64,000 bases of DNA from NCBI GenBank assembly GCA_964016885.1, contig OZ024742.1:204972001-205036000 (forward strand), written 5' to 3'. The notes beneath the pieces were generated by a model, which saw only the letters and a list, made by a program, of their open reading frames with translations, was not told where the DNA came from and did not search any database. This DNA is from Eledone cirrhosa (Eukaryota). Within the stretch, counting starts at the first letter, position 1. The number at the start of each line of letters is the position of its first letter. The translations under genes were made by a program, and so were the position numbers. This document shows, piece by piece, positions 125-43,078 of the stretch.

Positions 125-233
125 CTGGCTGAGACACTAGGTAGACAATTATGAAAGGTAAATAATTTTATGTAAGACTTATATCCTTTTGTTTGTGTGT
201 CTGCTTCTCCATGTTTTCTATCTGTTTATCCAG
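125..233 (+). repeat. Non-satellite interrupting module, short type A (GT 158 to AG 233, 76 nt); second copy GT 3454
   Basis: CTGGCTGAGACACTAGGTAGACAATTATGAAAG|GTAAATAATTTTATGTAAGACTT...TTCTATCTGTTTATCCAG|TAGATAG. Lacks the 10-nt ATATTTGTCT present in types B and C. Confidence 0.95.
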
Positions 234-3200
234 TAGATAGACTGTCTGACTGTGACAGTTGAAAGACAGTCTGACTGGGACAGAAGATAGACAGTGTGAC
301 TTGAACAGTAGATAGACAGTCTAACTGGGACAGTAGATAGACTGTCTAACTGGAACAGTAGATAGACTGTGTGACAGTAGATAGACTCTCTGCCTAGGAC
401 AGTTCATAGACAGTTTCCCTAAGACATTAGATAGACTGTCTGTCTGGGACAGTCATAGACTATCTGACTGAGACAGTTTATAGACTGTCTGCCTGGGACA
501 CTTGATAGACAGTTTAACTGGGACAGTAGATAGAGTGCCTAACTGTGACAGTAGATAGACTCTCTTACTGGAACAGTAGATAGACTGTCTGTCTGGGACA
601 GTTCATAGACAGTCTACCTGGGACATTAGATAGACTTCTGACTGGGCCAGTAGATAGACTGTCTGCCTGCGACAGTTCATAGACAATCTACCTGGCACAT
701 TAGATAGACTTCTGACTGTGCCAGTAGATAGACTATCTGACTGAGACAGTTTATAGACTGTCTGACTGGGACAGTAGATAGACTGTCTGACTGGGACACT
801 TGATAGACTGTCTGACTGGGACAGTAGATAGACTGTCTGTCTGGGACAGTTGATAGACAGTCTGACTGGGACAGTTGATAGACTGTCTGACTGGGACAGC
901 GGATAGACTGTCTAACTGGGACAGTTCTTAGACAGTCTAACTGGGACATTAGATAGACTCTCTGACTGGGACAGTAGATAGACTGTCTGACTGTGACAGT
1001 TGATAGTCAGCCTGGCTGGAACAGTTGATAGACTGTCTGACTGGGACAGTAGATAGACTGTCTGACTGGGACAGTAGATAGACTGTGTGACTCTGACAGT
1101 AGATAGACTGTGTGACTGTGACAGTATATAGAATGTCTGCCTGGGACAGTTCATAGACAGTCTAACTGGGACATTAGATAGACAGTCTGACTGGGACAGT
1201 AGATAGACTGTGAAACTGTGACAGTTGATAGCCTGTCTGCCTGGGACAGTGCATAGACAGTCTAACTGCGACAGTGCATAGACAGTCTAACTGCGACATT
1301 AGATAGACTGTCTGACTGGGACAGTAGATAGACAGTATGACTGGGACAATTGATAGACTGTCTGACTGGGACAGCGGTTAGACTGTCTAACTGGGACAGT
1401 TCATAGAAAGTTTAACTGGGACAGTTCATAGACAGTTTAACTGGGACATTAGATAGACTCTCTGACTGGGACAGTAGATAGACTGTTTGACTGTGACAGT
1501 TGATAGACAGCCTGACTGGAACAGTTGATAGACTGTCTGACTGGGACATTAGATAGACAGTCTGACTGGGACAGTAGATAGACTGTCTTACTGGGACAGT
1601 ATATAGACTGTGAGACTGTGACAGTAGATAGACTGTCTGCCTGGGACAGTTCATAGACAGTCTAACTGGGACATTAGATAGACTGTCTAACTGGAACAGT
1701 AGATAGTCTATCTGACTGGGACAGTCGATAGGCTGTCTGTCTGGGACTGTTGATAGACAGTTTAACTGGGACAGTAGATAGACTGTCTGACTGGGACAGT
1801 AGATAGACTGTTTGACTGGGACAGTTCATAGACAGTCTAACTGGGACATTAGATAGACTGTCGGACTGGGACAGTAGATAGACTGTCTGACTGGGACAGT
1901 AGGTAGAATGTCTCACTGTGACAGTAGATAGACAGTCTGACTGGGAGAGTTGATAGACTGTCTGACTGACAGTTGATAGACTGTCTGACTGACAGTTCAT
2001 AGACAGTCTAACTGGGACATTAGATAGACTGTCTGACAGGACCAGTAGATAAACTGTCTGACTGAGACAGTTGATAGACTGTGTGACTGGGACAGTTGAT
2101 AGACAGTTCAACTGGGACAGTAGATAGACTGTCTGACTGGGACAGTTGATAGACAGTCTAACTGTAAAAGTAGATAGACTGTCTAACTGGGATAGTAGAT
2201 AGACAGTCTAACTGGGACAGTTGATAGACATTCTAACTGGAACAGTAGATAGACTGTCTAACTGGAACAGTAGATAGACTGTCTAACTGGAATAGTAGAT
2301 AGACTGTCTAACTGGAACAGTAGATAGACTGTCTAACTGGAACAGTAGATAGACTGTCTAACTGGAACAGTAGATAGACTATGTGACTGGGACAGTTGAT
2401 AGACAGTTTAACTGGGACAGTAGATACACTGTCTGACTGGGACAGTTCTTAGACAGTCTGACTGGGACAGTAGATAGACTGTTTGACTGTGACAGTTGAT
2501 TGACAGCCTGACTGGAACAGTTGATAGACTGTCTGACTGGGACAGTAGATAGACTGTCTGCTTGGGACAGTTCATAGACAGTCTAACTGGGATATTACAT
2601 AAACTCTCTGACTGGGGCAGTAGATAGACTGTCTGACTGAGACAATCAATAGACTGTGTGACTGGGACAGTTGATAGACAGTGTAACTGCGACAGTAGAT
2701 AGACTGTCTGTCTGGGACAGTAGATAGACTTTCTAACTGGAACAGTAGATAGACTGTCTGCCTGGGACAGTTCATAGACATTCTACCTGGGACATTAGAT
2801 AGACTTCTGACTGGGCTAGTAGATAGACTATCTGACTGAGACAGTGTATAGACTGTCTCCTGGGACAGTAGATAGGCTGTCTGACTGGGACACTTGATAG
2901 ACTGTCTGACTGGGACAGTTGATAGGCAGTCTGACTGGGACAGTTGATAGACTGGCTGACTGGGTCAGCGCATAGACTGTCTAACTGGGACAGTTCATAG
3001 AAAGATTAACTGGGCCAGTTCTTAGACAGTCTAACTGGGACATTAGATAGACTCTCTGACTGGGACAGTAGTTAGACTGTATGAGTGTGACAGTTGATAG
3101 TCAGCCTGGCTGGAACAGTTGATAGACTGTCTGACTGGGACAGTAGATTGACTGGGACAGTAGATAGACTGTGTGACTGTGACAGTAGATAGACTGTGTG

Positions 3201-6200
3201 ACTGTGACAGTATATAGAATGTCTGCCTGGGACAGTTCATAGACAGTCTAACTGGGACATTAGATAGACAGTCTGACTGGGACAGTAGCTAGACTGTGAA
3301 ACTGACAGTTGATAGCCTGTCTGCCTGGGACAGTGCATAGACAGTCTAACTGCGACATTAGATAGACTGTCTGACTGGGACATTAGATAGACAGTATGAC
3401 TGGGACAGTAGATAGACATTCTGGCTGAGACACTAGGTAGACAATTATGAAAGGTAAATAATTTTATGTAAGACTTATATCCTTTTGTTTGTGTGTCTGC
3501 TTCTCCATGTTTTCTATCTGTTTATCCAGTAGATAGACTGTCTGACTGTGACAGTTGAAAGACAGTCTGACTGGGACAGAAGATAGACAGTGTGACTTGA
3601 ACAGTAGATAGACAGTCTAACTGGGACAGTAGATAGACTGTCTAACTGGAACAGTAGATAGACTGTGTGACAGTAGATAGACTCTCTGCCTAGGACAGTT
3701 CATAGACAGTTTCCCTAAGACATTAGATAGACTGTCTGTCTGGGACAGTCATAGACTATCTGACTGAGACAGTTTATAGACTGTCTGCCTGGGACACTTG
3801 ATAGACAGTTTAACTGGGACAGTAGATAGAGTGCCTAACTGTGACAGTAGATAGACTCTCTTACTGGAACAGTAGATAGACTGTCTGTCTGGGACAGTTC
3901 ATAGACAGTCTACCTGGGACATTAGATAGACTTCTGACTGGGCCAGTAGATGGACTATCTGACTGAGACAGTTTATAGACTGTCTGCCTGGGACACTTGA
4001 TAGACAGTTTAACTGGGACAGTAGATAGACTGCCTAACTGGGACAGTAGATAGACTCTCTTACTGGAACAGTAGATAGACTGTCTGCCTGGGACAGTTCA
4101 TAGACAGTCTACCTGGGACATTAGATAGACTTCTGACTGGGCCTGTAGATAGACTATCTGACTGAGACAGTGTATAGACTGTCTGCCTGAGATAGTAGAT
4201 AGGCTGTCTGACTGGGACACTTGATAGACTGTCTGACTGGGACAGTAGATAGACTGTCTGACTGGGACAGTTGATAGACAGTCTGACTGGGACAGTTGAT
4301 AGACTGTCTGACTGGGTCAGCGGATAGACTGTCTAACTGGGACAGTTCATAGAAAGTTTAACTGGGACAGTTCATAGACAGTCTAACTGGGACATTATAT
4401 AGACTCTCTGACTAGACAGTAGATAGACTGTCTGCCTGGGACAGTTCATAGACAATCTACCTGGCACATTAGATAGACTATCTGACTGAGACAGTTTATA
4501 GACTGTCTGACTGGGACACTTGATAGACTGTCTAACTGGGACAGTTGATAGACAGTCTGACTCGGACAGTTGATAGACTGTCTGACTGGGACAGCGAATA
4601 GACTGTCTAACTGGGACAGTTCATAGAAAGTTTAACTGGGACAGTTCTTAGACAGTCTAACTGGGATATTAGATAGACTCTCTGACTGGGACAGTAGATA
4701 GACTGTCTGCCTGCGACAGTTCATAGACAATCTACCTGGCACATTAGATAGACTTCTGACTGTGCCAGTAGATAGACTATCTGACTGAGACAGTTTATAG
4801 ACTGTCTGACTGGGACAGTAGATAGACTGTCTGACTGGGACACTTGATAGACTGTCTGACTGGGACAGTAGATAGACTGTCTGTCTGGGACAGTTGATAG
4901 ACAGTCTGACTGGGACAGTTGATAGACTGTCTGACTGGGACAGCGGATAGACTGTCTAACTGGGACAGTTCTTAGACAGTCTAACTGGGACATTAGATAG
5001 ACTCTCTGACTGGGACAGTAGATAGACTGTCTGACTGTGACAGTTGATAGTCAGCCTGGCTGGAACAGTTGATAGACTGTCTGACTGGGACAGTAGATAG
5101 ACTGTCTGACTGGGACAGTAGATAGACTGTGTGACTCTGACAGTAGATAGACTGTGTGACTGTGACAGTATATAGAATGTCTGCCTGGGACAGTTCATAG
5201 ACAGTCTAACTGGGACATTAGATAGACAGTCTGACTGGGACAGTAGATAGACTGTGAAACTGTGACAGTTGATAGCCTGTCTGCCTGGGACAGTGCATAG
5301 ACAGTCTAACTGCGACAGTGCATAGACAGTCTAACTGCGACATTAGATAGACTGTCTGACTGGGACAGTAGATAGACAGTATGACTGGGACAATTGATAG
5401 ACTGTCTGACTGGGACAGCGGTTAGACTGTCTAACTGGGACAGTTCATAGAAAGTTTAACTGGGACAGTTCATAGACAGTTTAACTGGGACATTAGATAG
5501 ACTCTCTGACTGGGACAGTAGATAGACTGTTTGACTGTGACAGTTGATAGACAGCCTGACTGGAACAGTTGATAGACTGTCTGACTGGGACATTAGATAG
5601 ACAGTCTGACTGGAACATTAGATAGACAGTCTGACTGGGACAGTAGATAGACTGTCTTACTGGGACAGTATATAGACTGTGAGACTGTGACAGTAGATAG
5701 ACTGTCTGCCTGGGACAGTTCATAGACAGTCTAACTGGGACATTAGATAGACTGTCTAACTGGAACAGTAGATAGTCTATCTGACTGGGACAGTCGATAG
5801 GCTGTCTGTCTGGGACTGTTGATAGACAGTTTAACTGGGACAGTAGATAGACTGTCTGACTGGGACAGTAGATAGACTGTTTGACTGGGACAGTTCATAG
5901 ACAGTCTAACTGGGACATTAGATAGACTGTCGGACTGGGACAGTAGATAGACTGTCTGACTGGGACAGTAGGTAGAATGTCTCACTGTGACAGTAGATAG
6001 ACAGTCTGACTTGGAGAGTTGATAGACTGTCTGACTGACAGTTGATAGACTGTCTGACTGACAGTTCATAGACAGTCTAACTGGGACATTAGATAGACTG
6101 TCTGACAGGACCAGTAGATAAACTGTCTGACTGAGACAGTTGATAGACTGTGTGACTGGGACAGTTGATAGACAGTTCAACTGGGACAGTAGATAGACTG

Positions 6201-9200
6201 TCTGACTGGGACAGTTGATAGACAGTCTAACTGGAAAAGTAGATAGACTGTCTAACTGGGACAGTAGATAGACAGTCTAACTGGGACAGTTGATAGACAT
6301 TCTAACTGGAACAGTAGATAGACTGTCTAACTGGAACAGTAGATAGACTGTCTAACTGGAACAGTAGATAGACTGTCTAACTGGAACAGTAGATAGACTG
6401 TCTAACTGGAACAGTAGATAGACTGTCTAACTGGAACAGTAGATAGACTATGTGACTGGGACAGTTGATAGACAGTTTAACTGGGACAGTAGATACACTG
6501 TCTGACTGGGACAGTTCTTAGACAGTCTGACTGGGACAGTAGATAGACTGTTTGACTGTGACAGTTGATTGACAGCCTGACTGGAACAGTTGATAGACTG
6601 TCTGACTGGGACAGTAGATAGACTGTCTGCTTGGGACAGTTCATAGACAGTCTAACTGGGATATTACATAAACTCTCTGCAGTAGATAGACTGTCTCACT
6701 GAGACAATCAATAGACTGTGTGACTGGGACAGTTGATAGACAGTTTAACTGCGACAGTAGATAGACTGTCTAACTGGAACAGTAGATAGACTGTCTGCCT
6801 GGGACAGTTCATAGACAGTCTACCTGGGACATTAGATAGACTTCTGACTGGCCCAGTAGATAGACTGACTGAGACAGTTTATAGACTGTCTGACTCGGAC
6901 ACTTGATAGACTGTCTGACTGGGACAGTAGATCGACTGTCTGTTTTGGACAGTTCATAGACAGTGTAATTGGGACAGTTCATACACAGTGTAACTGGGAC
7001 ATTAGTTAGACTGTCTGACTGGGACATTAGATAAACTGACTGGGCTAGTCGATAGACTGTCTGACTGGGACAGTAGATAGACTGTCTGACTGGGACAGTA
7101 GATAGACTGTCTGACTGGGACAGTTGATAGACAATCTGACTCGGACAGTTGATAGACTGTCTGACTGGGACAGCGAATAGACTGTCTAACTGGGACAGTT
7201 CATAGAAAGTTTAACTGGGACAGTTCTTAGACAGTCTAACTGGGACATTAGATAGACTGTCTGACTGGGACGGTAGATAGACAGTCTGCCTGGGACAGTT
7301 CAGAGACAGTCTAGCTGGGACATTAGATAGACTTCTGACTGGCCCAGTAGATAGACTGACTGAGACATTTTATAGACTGTCGGACTGGGACACTTGATAG
7401 ACTGTCTGACTGGGACAGTAGATAGACTGTCTAACTGGAACAGTAGATCGACTGTCTGTTTGGGACAGTTCATAGACAGTGTAACTGGGACATTAGTTAG
7501 ACTGTCTGACTGGGACATTAGATAGACTGACTGGGCCAGTCGATAGACTGTCTGACTGAGACAGTTCATAGACAGTCTGACTGGGACAGTTGATAGACTG
7601 TCTGACTGGGACAGTAGATAGACTGTTTGCCTGGGACAGTTCATAGACAGTGTAACTCGGAGATTAGATAGACTTCTGACTGGGACAGTTCATAGACAGT
7701 CTGACTGGAACAGTTGATAGACTGTCTGACTGGGACAGTAGATAGACTGTCTGCTTGGGACAGTTCATAGACAGTCTAACTGGGATATTACATAAACTCT
7801 CTGACTGGGGCAGTAGATAGACTGTCTCACTGAGACAATCAATAGACTGTGTGACTGGGACAGTTGATAGACAGTTTAACTGCGACAGTAGATAGACTGT
7901 CTGTCTGGGACAGTAGATAGACTGTCTAACTGGAACAGTAGATAGACTGTCTGCCTGGGACAGTTCATAGACAGTCTACCTGGGACATTAGATAGACTTC
8001 TGACTGGCCCAGTAGATAGACTGACTGAGACAGTTTATAGACTGTCTGACTCGGACACTTGATAGACTGTCTGACTGGGACAGTAGATCGACTGTCTGTT
8101 TTGGACAGTTCATAGACAGTGTAACTGGGACAGTTCATAGACAGTGTAACTGGGACATTAGTTAGACTGTCTGACTGGGACATTAGATAAACTGACTGGG
8201 CTAGTCGATAGACTGTCTGACTGGGACAGTAGATAGACTGTCTGACTGGGACAGTTGATAGACAATCTAACTCGGACAGTTGATAGACTGTCTGACTGGG
8301 ACAGCGAATAGACTGTCTAACTGGGACAGTTCATAGAAAGTTTAACTGGGACAGTTCTTAGACAGTCTAACTGGGACATTAGATAGACTGTCTGACTGGG
8401 ACGGTAGATAGACAGTCTGCCTGGGACAGTTCAGAGACAGTCTAGCTGGGACATTAGATAGACTTCTGACTGGCCCAGTAGATAGACTGACTGAGACAGT
8501 TTATAGACTGTCGGACTGGGACACTTGATAGACTGTCTGACTGGGACAGTAGATAGACTGTCTAACTGGAACAGTAGATCGACTGTCTGTTTGGGACAGT
8601 TCATAGACAGTGTAACTGGGACAGTTCATAGGCAGTGTAACTGGGACATTAGTTAGACTGTCTGACTGGGACATTAGATAGACTGACTGGGCCAGTCGAT
8701 AGACTGTCTGACTGAGACAGTTCATAGACAGTCTGACTGGGACAGTTGATAGACTGTCTGACTGGGACAGTAGATAGACTGTTTGCCTGGGACAGTTCAT
8801 AGACAGTGTAACTCGGAGATTAGATAGACTTCTGACTGGGACAGTTCATAGACAGTCTAACTTGGACAGTAGATAGCCTGTCTGACTGGGACTGTAGATA
8901 GACTGTCTGACTGGGACAATAGATAGACTGTCTGACTGGGACAGCGGCTAGACTGTCTAACTGGGAGAGTTCATAGAAAGTTTAACTGGGACTGTTCATA
9001 GACAGTCTAACTGGAACATTAGATAGACTCTCTGACTGGGACAGTAGATAGACTGTTTGACTGTGACAGTTGATTGACAGCCTGACTGGAACAGTTGATA
9101 GACTGTCTGACTGGGACAGTAGATAGACTGTCTGCTTGGGACAGTTCATAGACAGTCTAACTGGGATATTACATAAACTCTCTGACTGGGGCAGTAGATA

Positions 9201-11427
9201 GACTGTCTCACTGAGACAATCAATAGACTGTGTGACTGGGACAGTTGATAGACAGTTTAACTGCGACAGTAGATAGACTGTCTGTCTGGGACAGTAGATA
9301 GACTGTCTAACTGGAACAGTAGATAGACTGTCTGCCTGGGACAGTTCATAGACAGTCTACCTGGGACATTAGATAGACTTCTGACTGGCCCAGTAGATAG
9401 TCTGACTGAGACAGTTTATAGACTGTCTGACTGGGACACTTGATAGACTGTCTGACTGGGACAGTAGATCGACTGTCTGTTTTGGACAGTTCATAGACAG
9501 TGTAACTGGGACAGTTCATAGACAGTGTAACTGGGACATTAGTTAGACTGTCTGACTGGGACATTAGATAAACTGACTGGGCTAGCGATAGACTGTCTGA
9601 CTGGGACAGTAGATAGACTGTCTAACTGGAACAGTAGATCGACTGTCTGTTTGGGACAGTTCATAGACAGTGTAACTGGGACAGTTCATAGACAGTGTAA
9701 CTGGGACATTAGTTAGACTGTCTGACTGGGACATTAGATAGACTGACTGGGCCAGTCGATAGACTGTCTGACTGAGGCAGTTCATAGACAGTCTGACTGG
9801 GACAGTTGATAGACTGTCTGACTGGGACAGTAGATAGACTGTTTGCCTGGGACAGTTCATAGACAGTGTAACTCGGAGATTAGATAGACTTCTGACTGGG
9901 ACAGTTCGTAGACAGTCTAACTGGGACAGTAGATAGCCTGTCTGACTGGGACAGTAGATAGACTGTCTGACTGGGACAATAGATAGACTGTCTGACTGGG
10001 ACAGCGGCTAGACTGTCTAACTGGGAGAGTTCATAGAAAGTTTAACTGGGACTGTTCATAGACAGTCTAACTGGAACATTAGATAGACTCTCTGACTGGG
10101 ACAGTAGATAGACTGTTTGACTGTGACAGTTGATTGACAGCCTGACTGGAACAGTTGATAGACTGTCTGACTGGGACAGTAGATAGACTGTCTGCTTGGG
10201 ACAGTTCATAGACAGTCTAACTGGGATATTACATAAACTCTCTGACTGGGGCAGTAGATAGACTGTCTCACTGAGACAATCAATAGACTGTGTGACTGGG
10301 ACAGTTGATAGACAGTTTAACTGCGACAGTAGATAGACTGTCTGTCTGGGACAGTAGATAGACTGTCTAACTGGAACAGTTGATAGACTGTCTGCCTGGG
10401 ACAGTTCATAGACAGTCTACCTGGGACATTAGATAGTCTTCTGACTGGCCCAGTAGATAGACTGACTGAGACAGTTTATAGACTGTCTGACTCGGACACT
10501 TGATAGACTCTGACTGGGACAGTAGATAGACTGTCTAACTGGAACAGTAGATCGACTGTCTGTTTGGGACAGTTCATAGACAGTGTAACTGGGACAGTTC
10601 ATAGACAGTGTAACTGGGACATTAGTTAGACTGTCTGACTGGGACATTAGATAAACTGACTGGGCTAGTCGATAGACTGTCTGACTGGGACAGTAGATAG
10701 ACTGTCTGACTGGGACAGTTGATAGACTGTCTGACTGGGTCAGCGGATAGACTGTCTAACTGGGACAGTTCATAGAAAGTTTAACTGGGACAGTTCATAG
10801 ACAGTCTAACTGGGACATTAGATAGACTCTCTGACTGGGACAGTAGATAGACTGTCTGCCTGGGACAGTTAATAGACAATCTACCTGGGACATTAGATAG
10901 ACTTCTGACTGTGCCAGTAGATAGACTATCTAACTGAGACAGTTTATAGACTGTCTGACTGGGACAGTAGATAGACTGTCTGACTGGGACACTTGATAGA
11001 CTGTCTGACTGGGACAGTAGATAGACTGTCTGACTGGGACAGTTGATAGACAGTCTGACTGTGACAGTTGATAGACTGTCTGACTGGGACAGCAGATAGA
11101 CTGTCTAACTGGGACAGTTCATAGAAAGTTTAACTGGGACAGTTCTTAGACAGTCTAACTGGGACAGTAGATAGACTGTCTGACTGGGACAGTAGATAGA
11201 CTGTGACTCTGACAGTAGATAGACTGTGTGACTGTGACAGTATATAGAGTGTCTTCCTCGGACAGTTCATAGACAGTCGAACTGGGACATTAGATAGACA
11301 GTCTGACTGGGACAGTAGATAGACTGTCTTACTGGGACAGTAGATAGACTCTCTGCCTGGGACAGTTCATAGACAGTCTAACTGGGACATTAGATAGACT
11401 GTCTGACTGGGACAGTAGATAGACAGT

Positions 11428-11546
11428 CTGGCTGAGACACTAGGTAGACAATTATGAAAGGTAAATCATTTTACATAAGACTTACATCCTTTTGTTTGTG
11501 TGTCTGCTTCTCCATGTTTTCTATCTATATTTGTCTGGTTGTCCAG
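11428..11546 (+). repeat. Non-satellite interrupting module, type B (GT 11461 to AG 11546, 86 nt); further copies at GT 21450 and GT 26738
   Basis: Three copies share the diagnostic variants GTAAATCATTTTACATAAG and GTCTGGTTGTCCAG. Confidence 0.95.
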
Positions 11547-26500: not shown

Positions 26501-28536
26501 CTGTGTGACTGTGACAGTATATAGAGTGTCTTCCTGGGACAGTTCATAGACAGTCGAACTGGGACATTAGATAGACAGTCTGACTGGGACAGTAGATAGA
26601 CTGTCTTACTGAGACAGTAGATAGACTCTCTGCCTGGGACAGTTCATAGACAGTCTAACTGGGACATTAGATAGACTGTCTGACTGGGACAGTAGATAGA
26701 CAGTCTGGCTGAGACACTAGGTAGACAATTATGAAAGGTAAATCATTTTACATAAGACTTACATCCTTTTGTTTGTGTGTCTGCTTCTCCATGTTTTCTA
26801 TCTATATTTGTCTGGTTGTCCAGTAGATAGACTGTCTGACTGTGACAGTTGATAGACCATCTGACTGGGATAGTATATAGACTGTCTGACTGGGATGGTA
26901 GATAGTCAGTGTGACTGGAACAGTAGATAGACAGTCTAACTGGGACAGTAGATAGACTGTCTAACTGGAACAGTAGATAGACTCTCTGTCTGGGACAGTT
27001 CATAGAAAGTCTACCTGGGATATTAGATAGACTGTCTGACTGATACAGTAGATAGACTGTCTGACTGGGATAGTAGATAGACTGTCTGACTGGGACAGTA
27101 GATAGACAGTTTGACTGGGACAGTAGATAGACAGTCTGGCTGGGACAGTAGATACACTGTCTGACTGGGACAGTTGATAGACTATGTGAATGGGACAGTT
27201 GATAGACAGTCTAACTGGAACAGTAGATAGACTGTCTAACTGGAACAGTAGATAGACTATGTGAATGGGACAGTTGATAGACAATTTAACTGGGACAGTA
27301 AATACACTGTCTGACTGGGACAGTAAATAGACTGTTTGCCTGGAAAAGTACATAGACAGTCTAACTGGGACATTAGATAGACTGTCTGACTGGGACAGTA
27401 GATAGACTGTCTGACTGAGACAGTAGATAGACTGTCTGACTGAGACAGTTAATAGAGTGTGTGACTGGAACAGTTGATAGACAGTTTAACTGGCACAGTA
27501 GATAGACTGTCTGACTGGGACTGTAGATAGACTGTCTGCCTGGGACAGTTCAGAGACAGTCTAGCTGGGACATTAGATAGACTTCTGACTGGCCCAGTAG
27601 ATAGACTGACTGAGACAGTTTATAGACTGTCTGACTGGGACACTTGATAGACTGTCTGACTGGGACAGTAGATAGACTGTCTAACTGGAACAGTAGATCG
27701 ACTGTCTGTTTGGGACAGTTCATAGACAGTGTAACTGGGACAGTTCATAGACAGTGTAACTGGGACATTAGTTAGACTGTCTGACTGGGACATTAGATAG
27801 ACTGTCTGACTGGGACAGTTGATAGACAGTCTGACTCGGACAGTTGATAGACTGTCTGACTGGGACAGCGAATAGACTGTCTAACTGGGACAGTTCATAG
27901 AAAGTTTAACTGGGACAGTTCTTAGACAGTCTAACTGGGACATTAGATAGACTGTCTGACTGGGACAGTATATAGCCTGTCTGACTGGGACAGTAGATAG
28001 ACTGTCTGACTGGGACAATAGATAGACTGTCTGACTGGGACAGCGGCTAGACTGTCTAACTGGGACAGTTCAATAGAAAGTTTAACTGGGACAGTTCATA
28101 GACAGTCTAACTGGGACATTAGATAGACTCTCTGACTGGGACAGTAGGTAGACTGTTTGACTGTGACAGTTGATTGACAGCCTGACTGGAACAGTTGATA
28201 GACTGTCTGACTGGGACAGTAGATAGACTGTCTGCTTGGGACAGTTCATAGACAGTCTAACTAGGATATTACATAAAGTCTCTGACTGGGGCAGTAGATA
28301 GACTGTCTGACTGAGACAATCAATAGACTGTGTGACTGGGACAGTTGATAGACAGTTTAACTGCGACAGTAGATAGACTGTCTGACTGGGACAGTAGATA
28401 GACTGTCTGACTGAGACAGTTGATAGACTCTCTGACTGGGACAGTAGATAGACTGTGTGACTGGGACAGTTGATAGACAGTTTAACTGGCACAGTAGATA
28501 GACTGTCTGACTGGGACGGTAGATAGACTGTCTGCC

Positions 28537-31500: not shown

Positions 31501-34500
31501 ACTGTCTGACTGGGACAGCGGTTAGACTGTCTAACTGGGACAGTTCATAGAAAGTTTAACTGGGACAGTTCATAGACAGTTTAACTGGGACATTAGATAG
31601 ACTCTCTGACTGGGACAGTAGATAGACTGTTTGACTGTGACAGTTGATAGAGAGCCTGACTGAAACAGTTGATAGACTGTCTGACTGGGACAGTTCAGAG
31701 ACAGTCTAGCTGGGACATTAGATAGACTTCTGACTGGCCCAGTAGATAGACTGACTGAGACAGTTTATAGACTGTCTGACTGGGACACTTGATAGACTGT
31801 CTGACTGGGACAGTAGATAGACTGTCTAACTGGAACAGTAGATCGACTGTCTGTTTGGGACAGTTCATAGACAGTGTAACTGGGACAGTTCATAGACAGT
31901 GTAACTGGGACATTAGTTAGACTGTCTGACTGGGACATTAGATAGACTGACTGGGCCAGTCGATAGACTGTCTGACTGAGACAGTCTGACTGGGACAGTT
32001 GATAGACTGTCTGACTGGGACAGTAGATAGACTGTTTGCCTGGGACAGTTCATAGACAGTGTAACTGGGACAATTCATAGACAGTCTAACTGGGACAGTA
32101 GATAGACTGTCTGACTGGGACAATAGATAGACTGTCTGACTGGGACAGCGGCTAGACTGTCTAACTGGGAGAGTTCATAGAAAGTTTAACTGGGACTGTT
32201 CATAGACAGTCTAACTGGGACATTAGATAGACTCTCTGACTGGGACAGTAGATAGACTGTTTGACTGTGACAGTTGATTGACAGCCTGACTGGAACAGTT
32301 GATAGACTGTCTGACTGGGACAGTAGATTGACTGTCTGCTTGGGACAGTTCATAGACTGTCTAATTGGGATATTACATAAACTCTCTGACTGGGGCAGTA
32401 GATAGACTTTCTAACTGAGACAATCAATAGACTGTGTGACTGGGACAGTTGATAGACAGTTTAACTGCGACAGTAGATAGACTGTCTGTCTGGGACAGTA
32501 GATAGACTGTCTAACTGGAACAGTAGATAGACTGTCTGCCTGGGACAGTTCATAGACAGTCTACCTGGGACATTAGATAGACTTCTGACTGGGCCAGTAG
32601 ATAGACTATCTGACTGAGACAGTGTATAGACTGTCTGACTGGGACAGTAGATAGACTGTCTGACTGGGACACTTGATAGACTGTCTGACTGTGACAGTAG
32701 ATAGACTGTCTGACTGGGACAGTTGATAGACAGTCTGACTGGGACAGTTGATAGACTGTCTGACTGGGACAGCGGATAGACTGTCTAACTGGGACAGTTC
32801 ATAGAAAGTTTAACTGGGACAGTTCATAGACCGTCTAACTGGGACATTAGATAGACTCTCTGACTGGACAGTAGATAGACTGTCTGCCTGGGACAGTTCA
32901 TAGACAATCTACCTAGCACATTAGATAGACTTCTGACTGTGCCAGTAGATAGACTATCTGACTGAGACAGTTTATAGACTATCTGACTGGGACAGTAGAT
33001 AGACTGTCTGTCTGGGACACTTGATAGACTGTCTGACTGGGACACTTGATAGACTGTCTGATTGGGACAGTAGATAGACTGTCTGACTGGGACAGTTGAT
33101 AGACAGTCTGACTCAGACAGTTAATAGACTGTCTGACTGGGACAGCGAATAGACTGTCTAACTGGGACAGTTCATAGAAAGTTTAACTGGGACAGTTCTT
33201 AGACAGTCTAACTGGGACATTAGATAGACTCTCTGACTGGGACAGTAGATAGACTGTCTGACTGTGACAGTTGATAGTCAGCCTGGCTGGAACAGTTGAT
33301 AGACTGTCTGACTGGGACAGTAGATAGACTGTCTGACTGGGACAGTAGATAGACTGTGTGACTGTGACAGTAGATAGACTGTGTGACTGTGACAGTATAT
33401 AGAATGTCTGCCTGGGACAGTTCATAAACAGTCTAACTGGGACATTAGATAGACAGTCTGACTGGGACAGTAGATAGACTGTCTTACTGGGACAGTAGAT
33501 AGACTGTGAAACTGACAGTTGATAGCCTGTCTCCCTGGGACAGTGCATAGACAGTCTAACTGCGACATTAGATAGACTGTCTGACTGGGACAGTAGATAG
33601 ACAGTATGACTGGGACAGTAGATAGACATTCTGGCTGAGACACTAGGTACACAATTATGAAAGGTAAATAATTTTATGTAAGACTTATATCCTTTTGTTT
33701 GTGTGTCTGCTTCTCCATGTTTTCTGTAAGACTTATATCCTTTTGTTTGTGTGTCTGCTTCTCCATGTTTTCTATCTGTTTATCCAGTAGATAGACTGTC
33801 TGACTGTGACAGTTGAAAGACAGTCTGACTGGGACAGTATATAGACTGTCTGACTGTGACAGTAGATAGACAGTGTGACTTGAACAGTAGATAGACAGTC
33901 TAACTGGGACAGTAGATAGACTGTCTAACTGGAACAGTAGATAGACTGTGACAGTAGATAGACTCTGCCTGGGACAGTTCATAGACAGTCTGTCTGTCTG
34001 GGACAGTAGATAGACCGTCTGACTGGGACAGTAGATAGACTGTGTGACTGGGACAGCGGATAGACTGTCTAACTGGGACATTAGATACACTGTCTGACTG
34101 GGACAGTAGATAGACTGTCTGACTGGGACAGTTCAGAGACAGTCTAGCTGGGACATTAGATAGACTTCTGACTGGCCCAGTAGATAGACTGACTGAGACA
34201 GTGTATAGACTGTCTGACTGGTACACTTGATAGACTCTGAATGGGACAGTAGATAGACTGACTGGGCCAGTCGATAGACTGTCTGACTGAGACAGTTCAT
34301 AGACAGTCTGACTGGGACAGTTGATAGACTGTCTGACTGGGACAGTAGATAGGCTGTTTGCCTGGGACAGTTCATAGACAGTGTAACTGGGAGATTAGCT
34401 AGACTGTCTGACTGGGACAGTTCATAGACAGTCTAACTGGGACAGTAGATAGACTGTCTGACTGGGACAATAGATAGACTGTCTGACTGGGACAGCGGCT

Positions 34501-37500
34501 AGACTGTCTAAATGGGAGAGTTCATAGAAAGTTTAACTGGGACTGTTCATAGACAATCTAACTGGGACATTAGATAGACTCTCTGACTGGGACAGTAGAT
34601 AGACTGTTTGACTGTGACAGTTGATTGACAGCCTGACTGGAACAGTTGATAGACTGTCTGACTGGGACAGTAGATAGACTGTCTGCTTGGGACAGTTCAT
34701 AGACAGTCTAACTGGGATATTACATAAACTCTCTGACTGGGGCAGTAGATAGACTGTCTCACTGAGACAATCAATAGACTGTGTGACTGGGACAGTTGAT
34801 AGACAGTTTAACTGCGACAGTGGATAGACTGTCTGTCTGGGACAGTAGATAGACTGTCTGACTGGGACAGTAGATAGACTGTCTAACTGGAACAGTAGAT
34901 AGACTGTCTGCCTGGGACAGTTCATAGACAGTCTACCTGGGACATTAGATAGACTTCTGACTGGGCCAGTAGATAGACTATCTGACTGAGACAGTGTATA
35001 GACTGTCTGCCTGAGATAGTAGATAGGCTGTCTGTCTGGGACAGTAGATAGACTGTCTGACTGGGACAGTTGATAGACAGTCTGACTGGGACAGTTGATA
35101 GACTGTCTGACTGGGTCAGTGGATAGACTGTCTAACTGGGACAGTTCATAGAAAGTTTAACTGGGACAGTTCATAGACAGTCTAACTGGTACATTAGATA
35201 GACTCTCTGACTGGACAGTAGATAGACTGTCTGCCTGGGACAGTTCATAGACAATCTACCTGGCACATTAGATAGACTTCTGACTGTGTCAGTAGATAGA
35301 CTATCTGACTGGGACACTTGATAGACTGTCTGACTGGGACAGTAGATAGACTGTCTGACTGGGACAGTTGATAGACAGTCTGACTCGGACAGTTTATAGA
35401 CTGTCTGACTGCGACAGCGAATAGACTGTCTAACTGGGACAGTTCATAGAAAGTTTAACTGGGACAGTTCTTAGACAGTCTAACTGGGACATTAGATAGA
35501 CTCTCTGACTGGGACAGTAGATAGACTGTCTGACTGTGACAGTTGATAGTCAGCCTGGCTGGAACAGTTGACAGACTGTCTGACTGGGACAGTAGATAGA
35601 CTGTCTGACTGGGACAGTAGATAGACTGTGTGACTCTGACAGTAGATAGACTGTGACTGTGACAGTACATAGAATGTCTGCCTGGGACAGTTCATGGACA
35701 GTCTAACTGGGACATTAGATAGACAGTCTTACTGGGACAGTAGATAGACTGTCTTACTGGGACAGTAGATAGACTGTGACAGTTGATAGCCTGTCTGCCT
35801 GGGACAGTGCATAGACAGTCTAACTGGGACATTAGATAGACTGTCTGACTGGGACAGTAGATAGACAGTATGACTGGGACAGTTGATAGACTGTCTGACT
35901 GGGACAGTTCATAGACAGTCTAACTGGGACATTAGATAGACTGTCTGACTGGGACAGTTCATAGACAGTCTAACTGGGACATTAGATAGACTGTCTGACT
36001 GGGACAGCGGCTAGACTGTCTAACTGGTACAGTTCAATAGAAAGTTTAACTGGGACAGTTCCTAGACAGTCTAACTGGGACATTAGATAGACTCTCTGAC
36101 TGGGACAGTAGATAGACTGTTTGACTGTGACAGTTGATTGACAGCCTGACTGGAACAGTTGATAGACTGTCTGACTGAGACAGTAGATAGACTGTCTGCT
36201 TGGGACAGTTCATAGACAGTCTAACTGGGATATTACATAAACTCTCTGACTGGGGCAGTAGATAGACTGTCTGACTGAGACAATCAATAGACTGTGTGAC
36301 TGGGACAGTTGATAGACAGTTTAACTGCGACAGTAGATAGACTGTCTGTCTGGGACAGTAGATAGACTGTCTGCCTGGGACAGTTCATAGACAATCTACC
36401 TGGGACATTAGATAGACTTCTGACTGTGCCAGTAGATAGACTATCTGACTGAGACAGTTTATAGACTGTCTGACTGGGACAGTAGATAGACTGTCTGACT
36501 GGGACACTTGATAGACTGTCTGACTGGGACAGTAGATAGACTGTCTGACTGGGACAGTTGATAGACAGTCTGACTCTGACAGTTGATAGACTGTCTGACT
36601 GGGACAGCAGATAGACTGTCTAACTGGGACAGTTCATAGAAAGTTTAACTGGGACAGTTTTTAGACAGTCTAACTGGGACATTAGATAGACTCTGACTGG
36701 GACAGTAGATAGACTGTCTGACTGTGACAGTTGATAGTCAGCCTGGCTGGAACAGTTGATAGACTGTCTGACTGGGACAGTAGATAGACTGTCTGACTGG
36801 GACAGTAGATAGACTGTGTGACTCTGACAGTAGATAGACTGTGTGACTGTGACAGTATATAGAATGTCTGCCTGGGACAGTTCATAGACAGTCTAACTGG
36901 GACATTAGATAGACAGTCTGACTGGGACAGTAGATAGACTGTGAAACTGTGACAGTTGATAGCCTGTCTGCCTGGGACAGTGCATAGACAGTCTAACTGC
37001 GACAGTGCATAGACAGTCTAACTGCGACATTAGATAGACTGTCTGACTGGGACAGTAGATAGACAGTATGACTGGGACAGTTGATAGACTGTCTGACTGG
37101 GACAGCGGTTAGACTGTCTAACTGGGACAGTTCATAGAAAGTTTAACTGGGACAGTTCATAGACAGTTTAACTGGGACATTAGATAGACTCTCTGACTGG
37201 GACAGTAGATAGACTGTTTGACTGTGACAGTTGATAGAGAGCCTGACTGAAACAGTTGATAGACTGTCTGACTGGGACAGTTCAGAGACAGTCTAGCTGG
37301 GACATTAGATAGACTTCTGACTGGCCCAGTAGATAGACTGACTGAGACAGTTTATAGACTGTCTGACTGGGACACTTGATAGACTGTCTGACTGGGACAG
37401 TAGATAGACTGTCTAACTGGAACAGTAGATCGACTGTCTGTTTGGGACAGTTCATAGACAGTGTAACTGGGACAGTTCATAGACAGTGTAACTGGGACAT

Positions 37501-39719
37501 TAGTTAGACTGTCTGACTGGGACATTAGATAGACTGACTGGGCCAGTCGATAGACTGTCTGACTGAGACAGTCTGACTGGGACAGTTGATAGACTGTCTG
37601 ACTGGGACAGTAGATAGACTGTTTGCCTGGGACAGTTCATAGACAGTGTAACTGGGACAATTCATAGACAGTCTAACTGGGACAGTAGATAGACTGTCTG
37701 ACTGGGACAATAGATAGACTGTCTGACTGGGACAGCGGCTAGACTGTCTAACTGGGAGAGTTCATAGAAAGTTTAACTGGGACTGTTCATAGACAGTCTA
37801 ACTGGGACATTAGATAGACTCTCTGACTGGGACAGTAGATAGACTGTTTGACTGTGACAGTTGATTGACAGCCTGACTGGAACAGTTGATAGACTGTCTG
37901 ACTGGGACAGTAGATTGACTGTCTGCTTGGGACAGTTCATAGACTGTCTAATTGGGATATTACATAAACTCTCTGACTGGGGCAGTAGATAGACTTTCTA
38001 ACTGAGACAATCAATAGACTGTGTGACTGGGACAGTTGATAGACAGTTTAACTGCGACAGTAGATAGACTGTCTGTCTGGGACAGTAGATAGACTGTCTA
38101 ACTGGAACAGTAGATAGACTGTCTGCCTGGGACAGTTCATAGACAGTCTACCTGGGACATTAGATAGACTTCTGACTGGGCCAGTAGATAGACTATCTGA
38201 CTGAGACAGTGTATAGACTGTCTGACTGGGACAGTAGATAGACTGTCTGACTGGGACACTTGATAGACTGTCTGACTGTGACAGTAGATAGACTGTCTGA
38301 CTGGGACAGTTGATAGACAGTCTGACTGGGACAGTTGATAGACTGTCTGACTGGGACAGCGGATAGACTGTCTAACTGGGACAGTTCATAGAAAGTTTAA
38401 CTGGGACAGTTCATAGACCGTCTAACTGGGACATTAGATAGACTCTCTGACTGGACAGTAGATAGACTGTCTGCCTGGGACAGTTCATAGACAATCTACC
38501 TAGCACATTAGATAGACTTCTGACTGTGCCAGTAGATAGACTATCTGACTGAGACAGTTTATAGACTATCTGACTGGGACAGTAGATAGACTGTCTGTCT
38601 GGGACACTTGATAGACTGTCTGACTGGGACACTTGATAGACTGTCTGATTGGGACAGTAGATAGACTGTCTGACTGGGACAGTTGATAGACAGTCTGACT
38701 CAGACAGTTAATAGACTGTCTGACTGGGACAGCGAATAGACTGTCTAACTGGGACAGTTCATAGAAAGTTTAACTGGGACAGTTCTTAGACAGTCTAACT
38801 GGGACATTAGATAGACTCTCTGACTGGGACAGTAGATAGACTGTCTGACTGTGACAGTTGATAGTCAGCCTGGCTGGAACAGTTGATAGACTGTCTGACT
38901 GGGACAGTAGATAGACTGTCTGACTGGGACAGTAGATAGACTGTGTGACTGTGACAGTAGATAGACTGTGTGACTGTGACAGTATATAGAATGTCTGCCT
39001 GGGACAGTTCATAAACAGTCTAACTGGGACATTAGATAGACAGTCTGACTGGGACAGTAGATAGACTGTCTTACTGGGACAGTAGATAGACTGTGAAACT
39101 GACAGTTGATAGCCTGTCTCCCTGGGACAGTGCATAGACAGTCTAACTGCGACATTAGATAGACTGTCTGACTGGGACAGTAGATAGACAGTATGACTGG
39201 GACAGTAGATAGACATTCTGGCTGAGACACTAGGTACACAATTATGAAAGGTAAATAATTTTATGTAAGACTTATATCCTTTTGTTTGTGTGTCTGCTTC
39301 TCCATGTTTTCTGTAAGACTTATATCCTTTTGTTTGTGTGTCTGCTTCTCCATGTTTTCTATCTGTTTATCCAGTAGATAGACTGTCTGACTGTGACAGT
39401 TGAAAGACAGTCTGACTGGGACAGTATATAGACTGTCTGACTGTGACAGTAGATAGACAGTGTGACTTGAACAGTAGATAGACAGTCTAACTGGGACAGT
39501 AGATAGACTGTCTAACTGGAACAGTAGATAGACTGTGACAGTAGATAGACTCTGCCTGGGACAGTTCATAGACAGTCTGTCTGTCTGGGACAGTAGATAG
39601 ACCGTCTGACTGGGACAGTAGATAGACTGTGTGACTGGGACAGCGGATAGACTGTCTAACTGGGACATTAGATACACTGTCTGACTGGGACAGTAGATAG
39701 ACTGTCTGACTGGGACAGT
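28537..39719. repeat. Near-identical 5,587-bp tandem duplication within the satellite (copy 1 ~28537-34123, copy 2 ~34124-39719)
   Basis: Matching ORF-track peptides recur at a constant offset of 5587 (28946/34533, 29868/35455, 31095/36682, 31938/37525, 32824/38411, 33183/38770, 33674/39261). The interrupting modules at 33664 and 39251 share the same offset. Confidence 0.93.
33631..33787 (+). repeat. Type A module with an internal 48-bp tandem duplication (GT 33664 to AG 33787); second copy GT 39251 to AG 39374
   Basis: TGTAAGACTTATATCC...CCATGTTTTC is present twice, visible as the repeated peptide ENMEKQTHKQKDISLT in the ORF track. Confidence 0.95.
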
Positions 39720-42700
39720 AGATAGACAGTCTGGCTGAGACACTAGGTAGACAATTATGAAAGGTAAATAATTTTATGTAAGACTTACAGCCTTTTGTTT
39801 GTGTGTCTGCTTCTTCATGTTTTCTATCTATATTTGTCTGTTTATCCAGTAGATAGACTGTCTGACTGTGACAGTTGATTGACAGTCTGACTGGGACAGT
39901 ATATAGACAGTGTGACTGGAATAGTAGATAGACTGTCTGACTGGGACAGTTGATTGACAGCCTGACTGGAAAAATTGATAGACTGTCTGACTGGGACAGT
40001 AGATAGACTATCTGACTGGGACAGTCATGGACTATCTGCCTGGGACAGTCGATAGACTGTCTGGCTGAGACAGTTGATAGAGAGTTTAACTGGGACAGTA
40101 GATAGACTACCTAACTGGGACAGTAGATAGACTCTCTTACTGGAACAGTAGATAGACTGTCTGCCTGGGACAGTTCATAGACAGTCTACCTGGGACATTA
40201 GATAGACTTCTGACTGGGCCAGTAGATAGACTATCTGACTGAGACAGTTTATAGACTGTCTGCCTGGGACACTTGATAGTCTGTCTGACTTGGACAGTAG
40301 ATAGACTGTCTGACTGGGACAGTTGATAGACAGTCTGACTGGGACAGCGGATAGACTGTCTAAATGGGACAGTTCATAGAAAGTTTAACTGGGACAGTTC
40401 ATAGACAGACTAACTGGGACATTAGATAGACTCTCTTACTGGGACAGTAGATAGACTGTTTGACTGTGACAGTTGATAGACAGTCTGACTGGGACAGTTG
40501 AGAGACTGTCTGACTGTGACAGTAGATAGACTGTGTGACTGTGACAGTATATAGAGTGTCTGCCTGTGACAGTTCATAGACAGTCGAACTGGGACATTAG
40601 ATAGACTGTCTTACTGGCACTGTAGATAGACTGTGAGACTGTGAGATTAGATAGACTGTCTTCCTGGGACAGTTCATAGACAGTCTAACTGGGACATTAG
40701 ATAGACTGTCTGACTGGGACAGTAGATAGACAGTCTGGCTGAGACACTAGGTAGACAATTATGAAAGGTAAATAATTTTATGTAAGAATTACTTCCTTTT
40801 GTTTGTGTCTGCTTCTCCATGTTTTCTATCTATATTTGTCTGTTTATCCAGTAGATAGACAGTCTGACTGTGACAGTTGATAGACAGTCTGACTGGGACA
40901 GTATATAGACTGTCTGACTGGGACAGTAGATAGACAGTGTGAATGGAACAGTAGATAGACAGTCTAGCTGGGACAGTAGATAGACCGTCTAACTGGAACA
41001 GTAGATAGACTGTCTGTCTAGGACAGTTCATAGACAGTGTAACTGGGACATTAGTTAGACTGTCTGACTGGGACAGTAGATAGACTGTCTGACTGGGACA
41101 GTAGATAGACAGTCTGTCTGGGACAGTAGATAGACAGTCTGACTGGGACAGTTGATAGACAGTCTGACTGGAACAGTTGATAGACTGTCTGACTGGGACA
41201 GTAGATAGACTGTGTGACTGTGACAGTATATAGAATGTCTGCCTGGGACAGTTCATAGACAGTCTAACTGGGACATTAGATAGACTGTCTGTCTGGGACA
41301 GTAGATAGACAATCTGACTGGGACAGTAGATAGACTGTCTTACTGGGACACTAGGTGGACAATTATGAAAGGTAAATAATTTTATGTAAGACTTAGATCC
41401 TTTTGTTTCTGTGTCTGCTTCATGTTTTCTATCTATATTTGTCTGTTTATTCAGTAGATAGACTGTCTAACTGGAACAGTAGATAGACTGTGTGACTTGA
41501 CAGTAGATAGACTCTCTGCTTGGGACAGTTCATAGACAGTCTACCTGGGACATTAGATAGACTGTCTGACTGAGACAGTAGATAGACTGCCTGACTGGGA
41601 CAGTAGTTAGACTGTCTGACTGGGACAGTAGTTAGACAGTCTGTCTGGGACCGTAGATAGACTGTCTGACTGGGACAGTAGATAGACTCTCTGACTGGGA
41701 CAGTAGATAGATTGTCTGACTGGGACAGTTCATTGACAGTATAACTGGGACATTAGATAGACTGTCTGACTGGGACAGTAGATAGACTGTCTGACTGGGA
41801 CAGTAGATAGACGGTCTAACAGGGACAGTAGATAGACTGTGTGACTGGGACAGTTGATAGACTGTCTGACTGGGACAGCAGATAGACTGTCAAACTGGGA
41901 CATTAGATACACCGTCTGACTGGGACAGTAGATAGACTCTCTGACTGTGATAGTTGATAGACAGTCTGACTGGAACAGTAGATAGACTATCTGACTGGGA
42001 CAGTCGATAGACTGTCTGACTGGAACAGTTGATACACAGTTTAACTGGGACAGTAGATAGACTGTCTGACTGGGACAGTAGCTAGACAGTCTAACTGGGA
42101 CAGTAGATAGACAGTCTAAATGGGACAGTAGATAGATGTCCAACTGGAACAGTAGATAGACTATCTGACTGGGACAGTCGATAGACTGTTTGACTGGAAC
42201 AGTTGATAGACAGTCTAACTGGGACATTAGATAGACTGTTTGACTGGGACAGTAGATAGACTGTCTGACTGGGACAGTAGGTAGATAGTCTCACTGTGAC
42301 AGTAGATAGACAGTCTGACTGGGACAGTTGATAGACATTTTAACTGGGACAGTAGATAGACTGTCTGACTGGGACGGTAGATAGACTGTCTGCCTGGGTT
42401 AGTAGAGAGACAGTCTGACTGGGACAGTAGATAGACTGTCTGACTGGGACAGTAGATAGACTGTGTGACTGGGACAGTAGATAGACAGTGTGACTGGAAC
42501 AGTAGATAGACTGTCTGACTGGGACATTAAATAGACTGTCTAACTGGGACAGTAGATAGTCTGTCTAACTGGAACAGTAGATAGACTGTGACTGTGACAG
42601 TAGATAGACTCTCTGCCTGGGACAGTTCATAGACTGTCTACCTGGGACATTAGATAGACTGTCTGGCTGAGACAGTAGATAGACTGTCTGACTGGGACAG

Positions 42701-42960
42701 TAGATAGACTGCCTGACTGGGACAGTAGATAGACAGTCTGACTGGGACAGTAGATAGACAGTCTGACTGGGACAGTAGATAGACTGTCTGACTGGGACAG
42801 TAGATAGACTGTCTGACTAGGACAGCAGATAGACTGTGTGACTGACAGTAGATAGAATGTCTGCCTTCGACAGTTCATAGACAGTCTAACTAGGACATTA
42901 GATAGACAGTCTGACTGGGACAGTTGATAGACTGTCTGACTGTGACAGTAGATAGACAGT

Positions 42961-43078
42961 CTGGCTGAGACACTAGGTAGACAATTATGAAAGGTAAATA
43001 ATTTTATGTAAGACTTACATCCTTTTGTGTGTGTGGCTGCTTCTCCATGTTTTCTATCTATATTTGTCTGTTTATCCA
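42961..43078 (+). other. Array/flank junction: terminal copy of the interrupting module (type C); internal type C copies at GT 39764, 40768, 41372
   Basis: Same sequence as the internal modules, but after TTTATCCA it continues into unique flank (TTTCTCCATC...) instead of returning to the satellite. Confidence 0.92.

What the first reader, a model, noticed from the sequence alone, without database searches (positions are those of the whole stretch)
125..43078. Satellite array seeded with copies of its own boundary, each reading as a sense-strand GT-AG mini-intron
Seen: a non-satellite module occurs 11 times (GT at 158, 3454, 11461, 21450, 26738, 33664, 39251, 39764, 40768, 41372, 42994). Each internal copy reads AAG|GTAAAT...pyrimidine-rich tract...(C/T)CAG|satellite, with 76-124 nt from GT to AG, on the same strand as DAP3. 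The donor and terminal CAG survive in all ten internal copies, while the interior has substitutions, a 10-nt deletion and a 48-nt duplication. The CAG exists only because the flank was re-joined to the satellite; the terminal copy has CCAT. Inference: the modules could be nested or stepwise splice points that help process a giant satellite-filled intron, or real introns of a satellite lncRNA. Chance resemblance in T-rich DNA remains possible.
Basis: partly seen in the sequence, partly recalled or inferred. Interest (0 to 1): 0.75.

Follow-up and report, generated by a model that had tools for sequence, protein, structure and literature searches.

The report
Satellite multiplying its own intron-like edge
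In an octopus-like genome an 87,000-base repeat fills one intron of the intact DAP3 gene and carries 36 internal copies of its own right-hand edge that look like tiny introns; all share one breakpoint, so they are likely passengers of one copying accident rather than a splicing device, and whether the cell ever uses them is untested.

Summary
The 25-bp satellite runs 87 kb, filling 95% of the 91,496-nt intron between DAP3 coding exons 2 and 3, and holds 37 copies of the edge module: 36 internal and 1 terminal.

All 36 internal copies share one breakpoint with 2-nt microhomology. They sit in larger duplicated blocks: 11 lineages, 6 for the window's ten. Survival of GT and AG is therefore mostly shared descent (P 0.50; 0.08-0.11 for the 12-nt core).

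The donor resembles DAP3's real donors. The acceptor is low-end and comes from the satellite's own CAG plus a TATC/TGTC simple repeat. A random re-join gives such a look-alike 0.06-2% of the time.

No copy has a GT after the CAG, so these are not canonical ratchet points. Removing every mini-intron would shorten the intron by 3.4%. Use in RNA is untested.

Best reading: passengers, mostly skipped (0.70). Low-level cryptic use (0.20) and a selected splicing aid (0.06) remain open. The scan noted similar decoy-laden intronic satellites elsewhere in this genome.

The parts
1..42985 (+). 25-bp satellite array, right half. It begins 44,110 nt upstream of the window (87 kb in all) and lies inside the intron after DAP3 coding exon 2
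   Evidence: an exact 30-mer occurs 93 times in the 3.0-Gb assembly, all in this intron; monomers differ about 11% from consensus
158..233 (+). internal edge module, 76 nt GT..AG (10-nt deletion); lineage shared with 3454
3454..3529 (+). internal edge module, 76 nt
11461..11546 (+). internal edge module, 86 nt; lineage with 21450 and 26738; lost the second donor-like site at +15 and has two tract-weakening changes
21450..21535 (+). internal edge module, 86 nt
26738..26823 (+). internal edge module, 86 nt
33664..33787 (+). internal edge module, 124 nt (10-nt deletion plus 48-nt duplication); inside a 5.7-kb block duplicated at 39251
39251..39374 (+). internal edge module, 124 nt
39764..39849 (+). 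internal edge module, 86 nt, own lineage
40768..40851 (+). internal edge module, 84 nt, own lineage
41372..41454 (+). internal edge module, 83 nt, own lineage
42986..43078 (+). terminal (source) copy: true right flank of the array, donor-like GT at 42994, duplication breakpoint at the CA of 43077-43078
43041..43240 (+). degenerate TATC/TGTC simple repeat (74.5% pyrimidine) that supplies the pyrimidine tract; the complement class of the GATA/GACA-rich satellite
   Evidence: about 70% identical copies on C11 and C17
44450..45231 (+). 32-bp minisatellite in the same intron with 9 copies of GTAAGT (internal control for amplified decoy donors)
47117..47225 (+). DAP3 coding exon 3, the real acceptor of the satellite intron (phase 0)
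49232..49324 (+). DAP3 coding exon 4
   Evidence: Pfam PF10236 E=3.9e-9
58137..58273 (+). DAP3 coding exon 5
   Evidence: 82% identical to Octopus vulgaris 28S ribosomal protein S29

Best explanation
The 36 internal modules share one breakpoint and sit inside larger duplicated blocks of an 87-kb single-locus satellite in one DAP3 intron; they are likely passengers of a single microhomology-mediated duplication, likely multiplied by later block duplications, and the spliceosome likely skips most of them. Shown: one shared breakpoint, 2-nt CA microhomology, block structure, source of each signal. Inferred steps: (1) a short array of about 0.4-0.6 kb was duplicated together with 85 nt of its right flank, which already held a donor-like AAG|GTAAAT and the start of a TATC/TGTC simple repeat; (2) re-joining into the satellite supplied CAG, because 94% of the satellite's AG dinucleotides are YAG; (3) unequal exchange then amplified 0.5-6-kb blocks with or without modules; (4) exon 2 is spliced to exon 3 across the array, and any use of a module acceptor would meet a stop at once and likely be degraded.
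For: One breakpoint in 36 of 36 copies and no partial copies. 11 lineages, in blocks up to 5.7 kb at over 99% identity. A non-splice satellite variant was amplified 13 times in the same upstream blocks. 17 distinct substitutions in 100 columns: P(no hit in GT/AG) 0.50, P(no hit in 12-nt core) 0.11, 0.08 with indels. The acceptor-side 14 nt are the most diverged part of the module (6.8% against 4.1% inside). A second, higher-scoring donor-like site at +15 was destroyed in 3 of 37 copies. AG occurs 105 times per kb in the satellite, 8543 of 9112 as YAG. In 109 kb of DAP3's ordinary introns, 49 of 101 decoy donors scoring at least as well have an acceptor scoring at least as well as the module CAG 60-150 nt downstream (7 of 101 at the stricter threshold). 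A 32-bp minisatellite in the same intron carries 9 GTAAGT. No GT after the CAG in 36 of 36; mini-introns total 3,147 of 91,496 nt; spacing is irregular, 370 to 9,903 nt. Intron 1 is 61,647 nt with no modules. The 12-exon ORF is intact, 403 codons, and the O. vulgaris protein joins exons 2 and 3 directly.
Against: The longest invariant run of the module (19 nt) lies on the donor, and the 16 nt around it differ 0% between 10 lineage representatives against 4-8% in neighbouring parts; a run this long anywhere has P 0.26, so this is a weak hint only. The donor is as good as real ones: 8 of 11 U1 matches against 4-8 for DAP3's donors, and exon 10 uses AG|GTAAAT. A single random re-join gives this look-alike only 0.06-0.6% (consensus test) or 0.3-2% (11-site matrix) of the time. 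Modules supply all 36 donors within 2 mismatches of consensus that were counted in the array. The splice matrix rests on only 11 sites. Predicted accessibility of module tracts overlaps that of real ones, so folding does not explain silence.
Confidence: 0.7

Rival explanations
1. Same accidental origin, but the sites are used at measurable levels without benefit: 370-520-nt satellite pseudo-exons (acceptor of one module to donor of the next) act as poison or decoy exons, or are back-spliced into satellite circles, lowering DAP3 output.
For: 14 of 36 acceptor-to-next-donor spans are 370-520 nt, exon-sized; donor of real-site quality, acceptor inside the real pyrimidine range (13-15 of 20 against 11-18); the 15 spans under 1.1 kb have 11 or more stops in each frame; identical repeats flank each span. 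Decoy exons promote intron retention in human introns (PMC7373989, abstract).
Against: The CAG acceptor scores 1.2, below 10 of 11 real acceptors in leave-one-out scoring; ordinary introns of the gene hold many equally scoring exon-like pairs (318 pairs in 109 kb); amphioxus mirages with AG/GT signals did not disturb splicing (PMC3087553, passages).
Confidence: 0.2
2. The modules are kept by selection as nested splice points: donor of one module to acceptor of a later one removes the satellite in blocks as it is transcribed, shortening the intron before exon 2 is joined to exon 3.
For: Invariant 19-nt donor run; modules hold the only near-consensus donors of the array; first module 637 nt after exon 2, last internal one 1.5 kb before the array end, so one nested cut could remove 85 kb. 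Nested splicing is documented in dystrophin (PMC4829307, passages).
Against: Single origin; invariance not significant; no donor regenerated after the CAG; acceptor side decays fastest; chained cuts would leave stop-filled satellite pieces needing a second round; the 61.6-kb intron 1 has no modules.
Confidence: 0.06
3. The modules are true short introns of a separate sense-strand satellite long non-coding RNA.
For: Lengths of 76-124 nt, GT-AG ends and correct order.
Against: No promoter or transcript end was identified; only 4 AATAAA in 87 kb; origin is fully explained by one DNA duplication.
Confidence: 0.04

Closest known systems
Avian 'sequence stuttering', intron and exon types (PMC12954441; abstract and section 7 part 1 of 2 read)
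   Same: Locus-specific repeats grown in place inside one intron, coding exons intact, splice-like signals can be copied along the intron.
   Different: There the copied splice site is the gene's real exon edge. Here neither signal is a real DAP3 site, and the acceptor was created by the duplication joint.
Human F7 intron 7 37-bp VNTR with 5' pseudo-sites (PMC1557585; abstract read)
   Same: Tandem amplification leaves many donor copies that are competent yet normally silent.
   Different: F7 repeats the authentic donor in every unit next to the exon. Here a cryptic donor plus a new acceptor recur once per 0.5-10 kb over 87 kb.
Amphioxus 'mirages' (PMC3087553; passages read)
   Same: Minisatellite-like duplications bearing AG/GT signals, length-unstable, reported not to disturb splicing.
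   Different: Mirages span a real exon-intron boundary and have few units; this spans a satellite-flank boundary.
[quoted passage not shown]
   Same: A tandem duplication brings a donor and an acceptor into intron order.
   Different: There a new intron was detected inside a gene's exon-intron junction; here the product lies wholly in an intron and no splicing is shown.
Recursive (ratchet) and nested splicing of long introns (PMC5126111, part 1 of 3 read; PMC4829307, passages)
   Same: Long intron with internal donor- and acceptor-like sites; the order donor-then-acceptor fits the nested type.
   Different: No YAG|GT at the module acceptor; no conservation or RNA evidence; sites arose by recent duplication.
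Satellite-filled gigantic introns of Drosophila Y genes (PMC6508621, search listing only; PMC11207136, passages)
   Same: An intron made mostly of satellite DNA in an intact gene.
   Different: Those are megabase, germline-specific genes; this is an 87-kb array in a gene for a mitochondrial ribosomal protein.

Membership tests
Recursive splice (ratchet) point | Acceptor directly followed by a donor, (Y)nNCAG|GTAAGT (PMC5126111) | tested here: not met
   36 of 36 internal acceptors are followed by TAGATAGA. A TAG|GT 19 nt upstream of the donor has no pyrimidine tract before it and is a satellite variant. Non-GT recursive sites reported in human cells are not excluded by this test.
Recursive splice (ratchet) point | Located in a long intron | tested here: met
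   91,496 nt
Recursive splice (ratchet) point | Exon-to-site junction reads, saw-tooth coverage, lariats | not testable with these tools
   See Tried and rejected
Nested splicing (intrasplicing) | Internal donor upstream of internal acceptor within a host intron | tested here: met
   donor typical, acceptor low-end
Nested splicing (intrasplicing) | Internal junctions or lariats in RNA | not testable with these tools
   See Tried and rejected
Nested splicing (intrasplicing) | Sites under constraint beyond neighbouring sequence | tested here: inconclusive
   P 0.08-0.11 for the 12-nt core, 0.50 for GT/AG; donor side 0% and acceptor side 6.8% diverged
Intron stuttering / locus-specific intronic VNTR | Repeat confined to one locus and one intron, exons intact | tested here: met
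   93 of 93 exact 30-mer matches in this intron; intact 403-codon ORF
Intron stuttering / locus-specific intronic VNTR | Length varies among individuals | not testable with these tools
   Only one sample's runs were listed
Exon stuttering / mirage / F7-type pseudo-sites | Repeated unit includes the gene's authentic exon boundary | tested here: not met
   Real donor at -44379 and acceptor at 47116 lie outside the array; the module matches neither
Intron gain by tandem duplication | Duplication joint brings donor and acceptor into intron order | tested here: met
   CAG formed at the CA microhomology joint
Intron gain by tandem duplication | New intron is spliced from a transcript | not testable with these tools
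   See Tried and rejected

The most novel reading that the evidence does not exclude
One duplication accident created a working donor-acceptor pair at a satellite's edge, and the growing satellite carried it along, so the array seeded itself with the nested splice points that let its host intron swell from about 4 kb to 91 kb: a satellite that builds its own way out of the transcript.
Probability: 0.07. Interest if true: 0.8.

Novelty: new variant of a known kind. Interest (0 to 1): 0.3.

Why it matters
As a passenger it is a clear fossil of how an intronic satellite grew: a single joint marks every later duplication. It is also a natural test bed. Thirty-six near-identical donor-acceptor pairs with distinguishing flank variants sit in an otherwise almost signal-free 87-kb stretch, so one RNA data set could tell mini-intron removal, pseudo-exon inclusion, long-range nested cuts and back-splicing apart. 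If nested use were shown and needed, it would link satellite expansion to the birth of new splice points and bear on how giant introns are tolerated.

Tried and rejected
RNA test: the one run search (1,001-nt query with exon 2, array start and first module) gave 'no RNA holder listed'; this is evidence neither way. The 3 runs listed are one sample, of unrecorded kind, and look genomic since they cover introns and repeats. Laid on both array ends, a 141-nt contig carries the module into satellite by about 27 nt and a 234-nt contig crosses the terminal CCAT with 30 nt on its short side, both just under the 31-nt bridging rule. Module contig depth is roughly 20-45 times that of unique flank contigs, in line with 37 copies, but such depth is no copy number and the sample may be the assembly's own; not counted as support.

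Ratchet point: rejected. Hidden coding exon: rejected; stops in all frames and the O. vulgaris protein joins exons 2 and 3 directly. Origin of the joint by RNA splicing: rejected; the flank has no GT at the breakpoint. Dispersed transposon or MITE: exact 30-mer only at this locus, and no inverted ends seen on reading the two edges; inexact relatives were not searched. Silencing by RNA structure: module folds with z -1.8 and the terminal region as DNA with z -2.2, but tract accessibility 0.01-0.51 overlaps real acceptors 0.18-0.83; inconclusive. Branch point: only 5 of 11 real acceptors show YTRAY within 60 nt, so the test cannot discriminate. The megablast block search mostly failed and its monomer count returned nothing; both were redone. 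No protein from this species came up in the one homologue search (2 hits among 3 candidates). The orthologous intron of other cephalopods was not available. Six paper searches (listings only) showed no title or abstract start describing a satellite that carries copies of its own flank as donor-acceptor pairs; the library is partial and no supplements were read.

Full report
Observation. The window starts with 43 kb of a 25-bp satellite. The module occurs at the 11 stated positions with the stated lengths and changes. The terminal copy at 42994 is the true right flank and reads CCAT where the internal copies read CCAG.

Setting. The window is G000:C3:204972001-205036000 of a 3.0-Gb animal genome. 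Exon 5 is 82% identical to Octopus vulgaris and 80% to Argonauta hians 28S ribosomal protein S29 (DAP3), so the animal is octopod-like. DAP3 matches at one locus, in 12 exons, which form an intact 403-codon frame. The array begins 44,110 nt upstream of the window, 270 nt after coding exon 2, and ends 4.1 kb before exon 3 at 47117. The intron is 91,496 nt, phase 0, 95% satellite. An exact 30-mer of the satellite occurs 93 times in the assembly, all here. The O. vulgaris protein joins exons 2 and 3 with nothing between.

Origin. The whole array has 37 modules and no degenerate or partial ones. All 36 internal copies end at the same base of the flank, 43078, where flank and satellite share CA. 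The shortest satellite-plus-module units are 0.45-0.6 kb, which suggests the size of the first duplication (inference). Copies group into 11 lineages by shared ungapped blocks of 800 nt or more; 24 copies lie in a 2.8-kb higher-order repeat upstream, and the window's ten internal copies form 6 lineages. A satellite variant with no splice look was amplified 13 times in the same upstream blocks. So the mini-intron look was made once and copied.

Where the signals come from. The donor-like AAG|GTAAAT is in the flank. The pyrimidine tract is the start of a 200-nt degenerate TATC/TGTC repeat, 74.5% pyrimidine, with distant copies on other contigs. The AG is the satellite's own: 105 AG per kb, 8543 of 9112 preceded by a pyrimidine, so almost any re-join yields a YAG.

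How good are the sites? I scored them against DAP3's own 11 introns, a crude model. The donor scores 7.9 (7.0 without exon 10's similar site) against leave-one-out values of -2.7 to 9.3; it matches the U1 complement (recalled motif) at 8 of 11 places against 4-8. The CAG acceptor scores 1.2, below 10 of 11 real ones; the TAG 3 nt later scores 5.8; pyrimidine counts (13-15 of 20) fall in the real range of 11-18. These are believable sites. They are also not rare: of 101 decoy donors of this score in 109 kb of ordinary DAP3 intron, 49 have an acceptor scoring at least 1.2 and 7 one scoring at least 5.8 within 60-150 nt. A single random re-join gives the full look-alike at 179 of 306,988 positions by a strict consensus test, 0.6% by a looser one, and at 358 or 2,161 of 106,609 positions by the matrix. 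That is uncommon per event, but this scan selects such cases from a genome with very many arrays (earlier notes; unchecked).

Selection. Across the 36 internal copies there are 17 distinct substitutions in 100 columns. The chance that none hits GT or AG is 0.50; none in the 12-nt core, 0.11, or 0.08 counting indels. Against it: the acceptor-side 14 nt are the most diverged part (6.8%), and a second, higher-scoring donor-like site at +15 was lost in 3 copies. The test is inconclusive and leans neutral.

Mechanism. Canonical ratchet points need a donor right after the acceptor (PMC5126111, part 1 of 3 read); 36 of 36 module acceptors are followed by TAGATAGA. Removing all mini-introns takes out 3,147 nt, 3.4% of the intron. 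Nested splicing (PMC4829307, passages) fits the order of the sites, and a cut from an early donor to a late acceptor could remove most of the array, but nothing here shows it. Read the other way, acceptor to next donor, the modules define satellite pseudo-exons: 14 of 36 are 370-520 nt, and all 15 under 1.1 kb have 11 or more stops in each frame. Exon 2 joined to a module CAG meets TAG at once. Such use would likely be degraded (established knowledge of nonsense-mediated decay). Two controls in the same gene show tolerance of size and decoys: intron 1 is 61,647 nt without modules, and a 32-bp minisatellite at 44450-45231 carries 9 GTAAGT. The junction proposed as a check would arise equally from mini-intron removal, block skipping and back-splicing; flank variants can separate them.

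Comparison. It works like intron stuttering in birds (PMC12954441, abstract and part of section 7), F7 pseudo-sites (PMC1557585, abstract) and amphioxus mirages (PMC3087553, passages): local amplification that multiplies splice-like signals. It is not a member of the exon-boundary types, since no authentic site is copied. Its twist is that the acceptor is made by the duplication joint, as in intron gain by tandem duplication (PMC4974935, abstract). Six searches (listings only) showed no such arrangement; the library is partial and supplements were not read.

Verdict. Real feature, new variant of a known kind. Passenger copies mostly skipped 0.70; non-adaptive cryptic use 0.20; selected nested splicing 0.06; satellite lncRNA introns 0.04. 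Use in RNA is untested. Interest 0.30.

Noticed in passing
array edges: L015:5884-5889 and window 42986-42991: The hexamer ATGAAA stands at both edges of the 87-kb array, like a target-site duplication. Chance about 1.4% with 2 nt of freedom at each edge. If real, the seed was inserted just before a pre-existing donor-like site.
   Followed up: partly
window 44450-45231: 32-bp minisatellite with 9 sense-strand GTAAGT donor look-alikes, 2.3-2.6 kb before the real acceptor.
   Followed up: partly
window 33664 and 39251: The 48-nt duplication starts exactly at the second donor-like GTAAGA; a TTTT.T microhomology explains it.
   Followed up: partly
window 42860-43240: The GATA/GACA-rich satellite and the TATC/TGTC flank are complementary classes facing each other; weak fold-back, z -2.2 as DNA. 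It may have favoured the template switch.
   Followed up: partly
window 50896-52401 (+) and 58460-61387 (-): Two LINE copies with reverse transcriptase and PHD domains; the second has a 975-codon stop-to-stop frame with an endonuclease domain. A more decayed piece lies near 47900-49050 (read by eye).
   Followed up: partly
window about 53920-57715: LTR retrotransposon copy in DAP3 intron 4: terminal direct repeats seen by eye, integrase core match, reading frames broken.
   Followed up: partly
window 62997-63505: 31-bp minisatellite, 16 copies, in DAP3 intron 5.
   Followed up: no
G000:C3:204832001-204848000 (L024-L023): About 16 kb with 6% G+C next to a 200-N gap, some 18 kb upstream of the DAP3 start codon.
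   Followed up: no
window 47226: DAP3 exon 3 appears to use a weak donor, TTT|GTATCC (4 of 11 U1 matches), just downstream of the giant intron.
   Followed up: no
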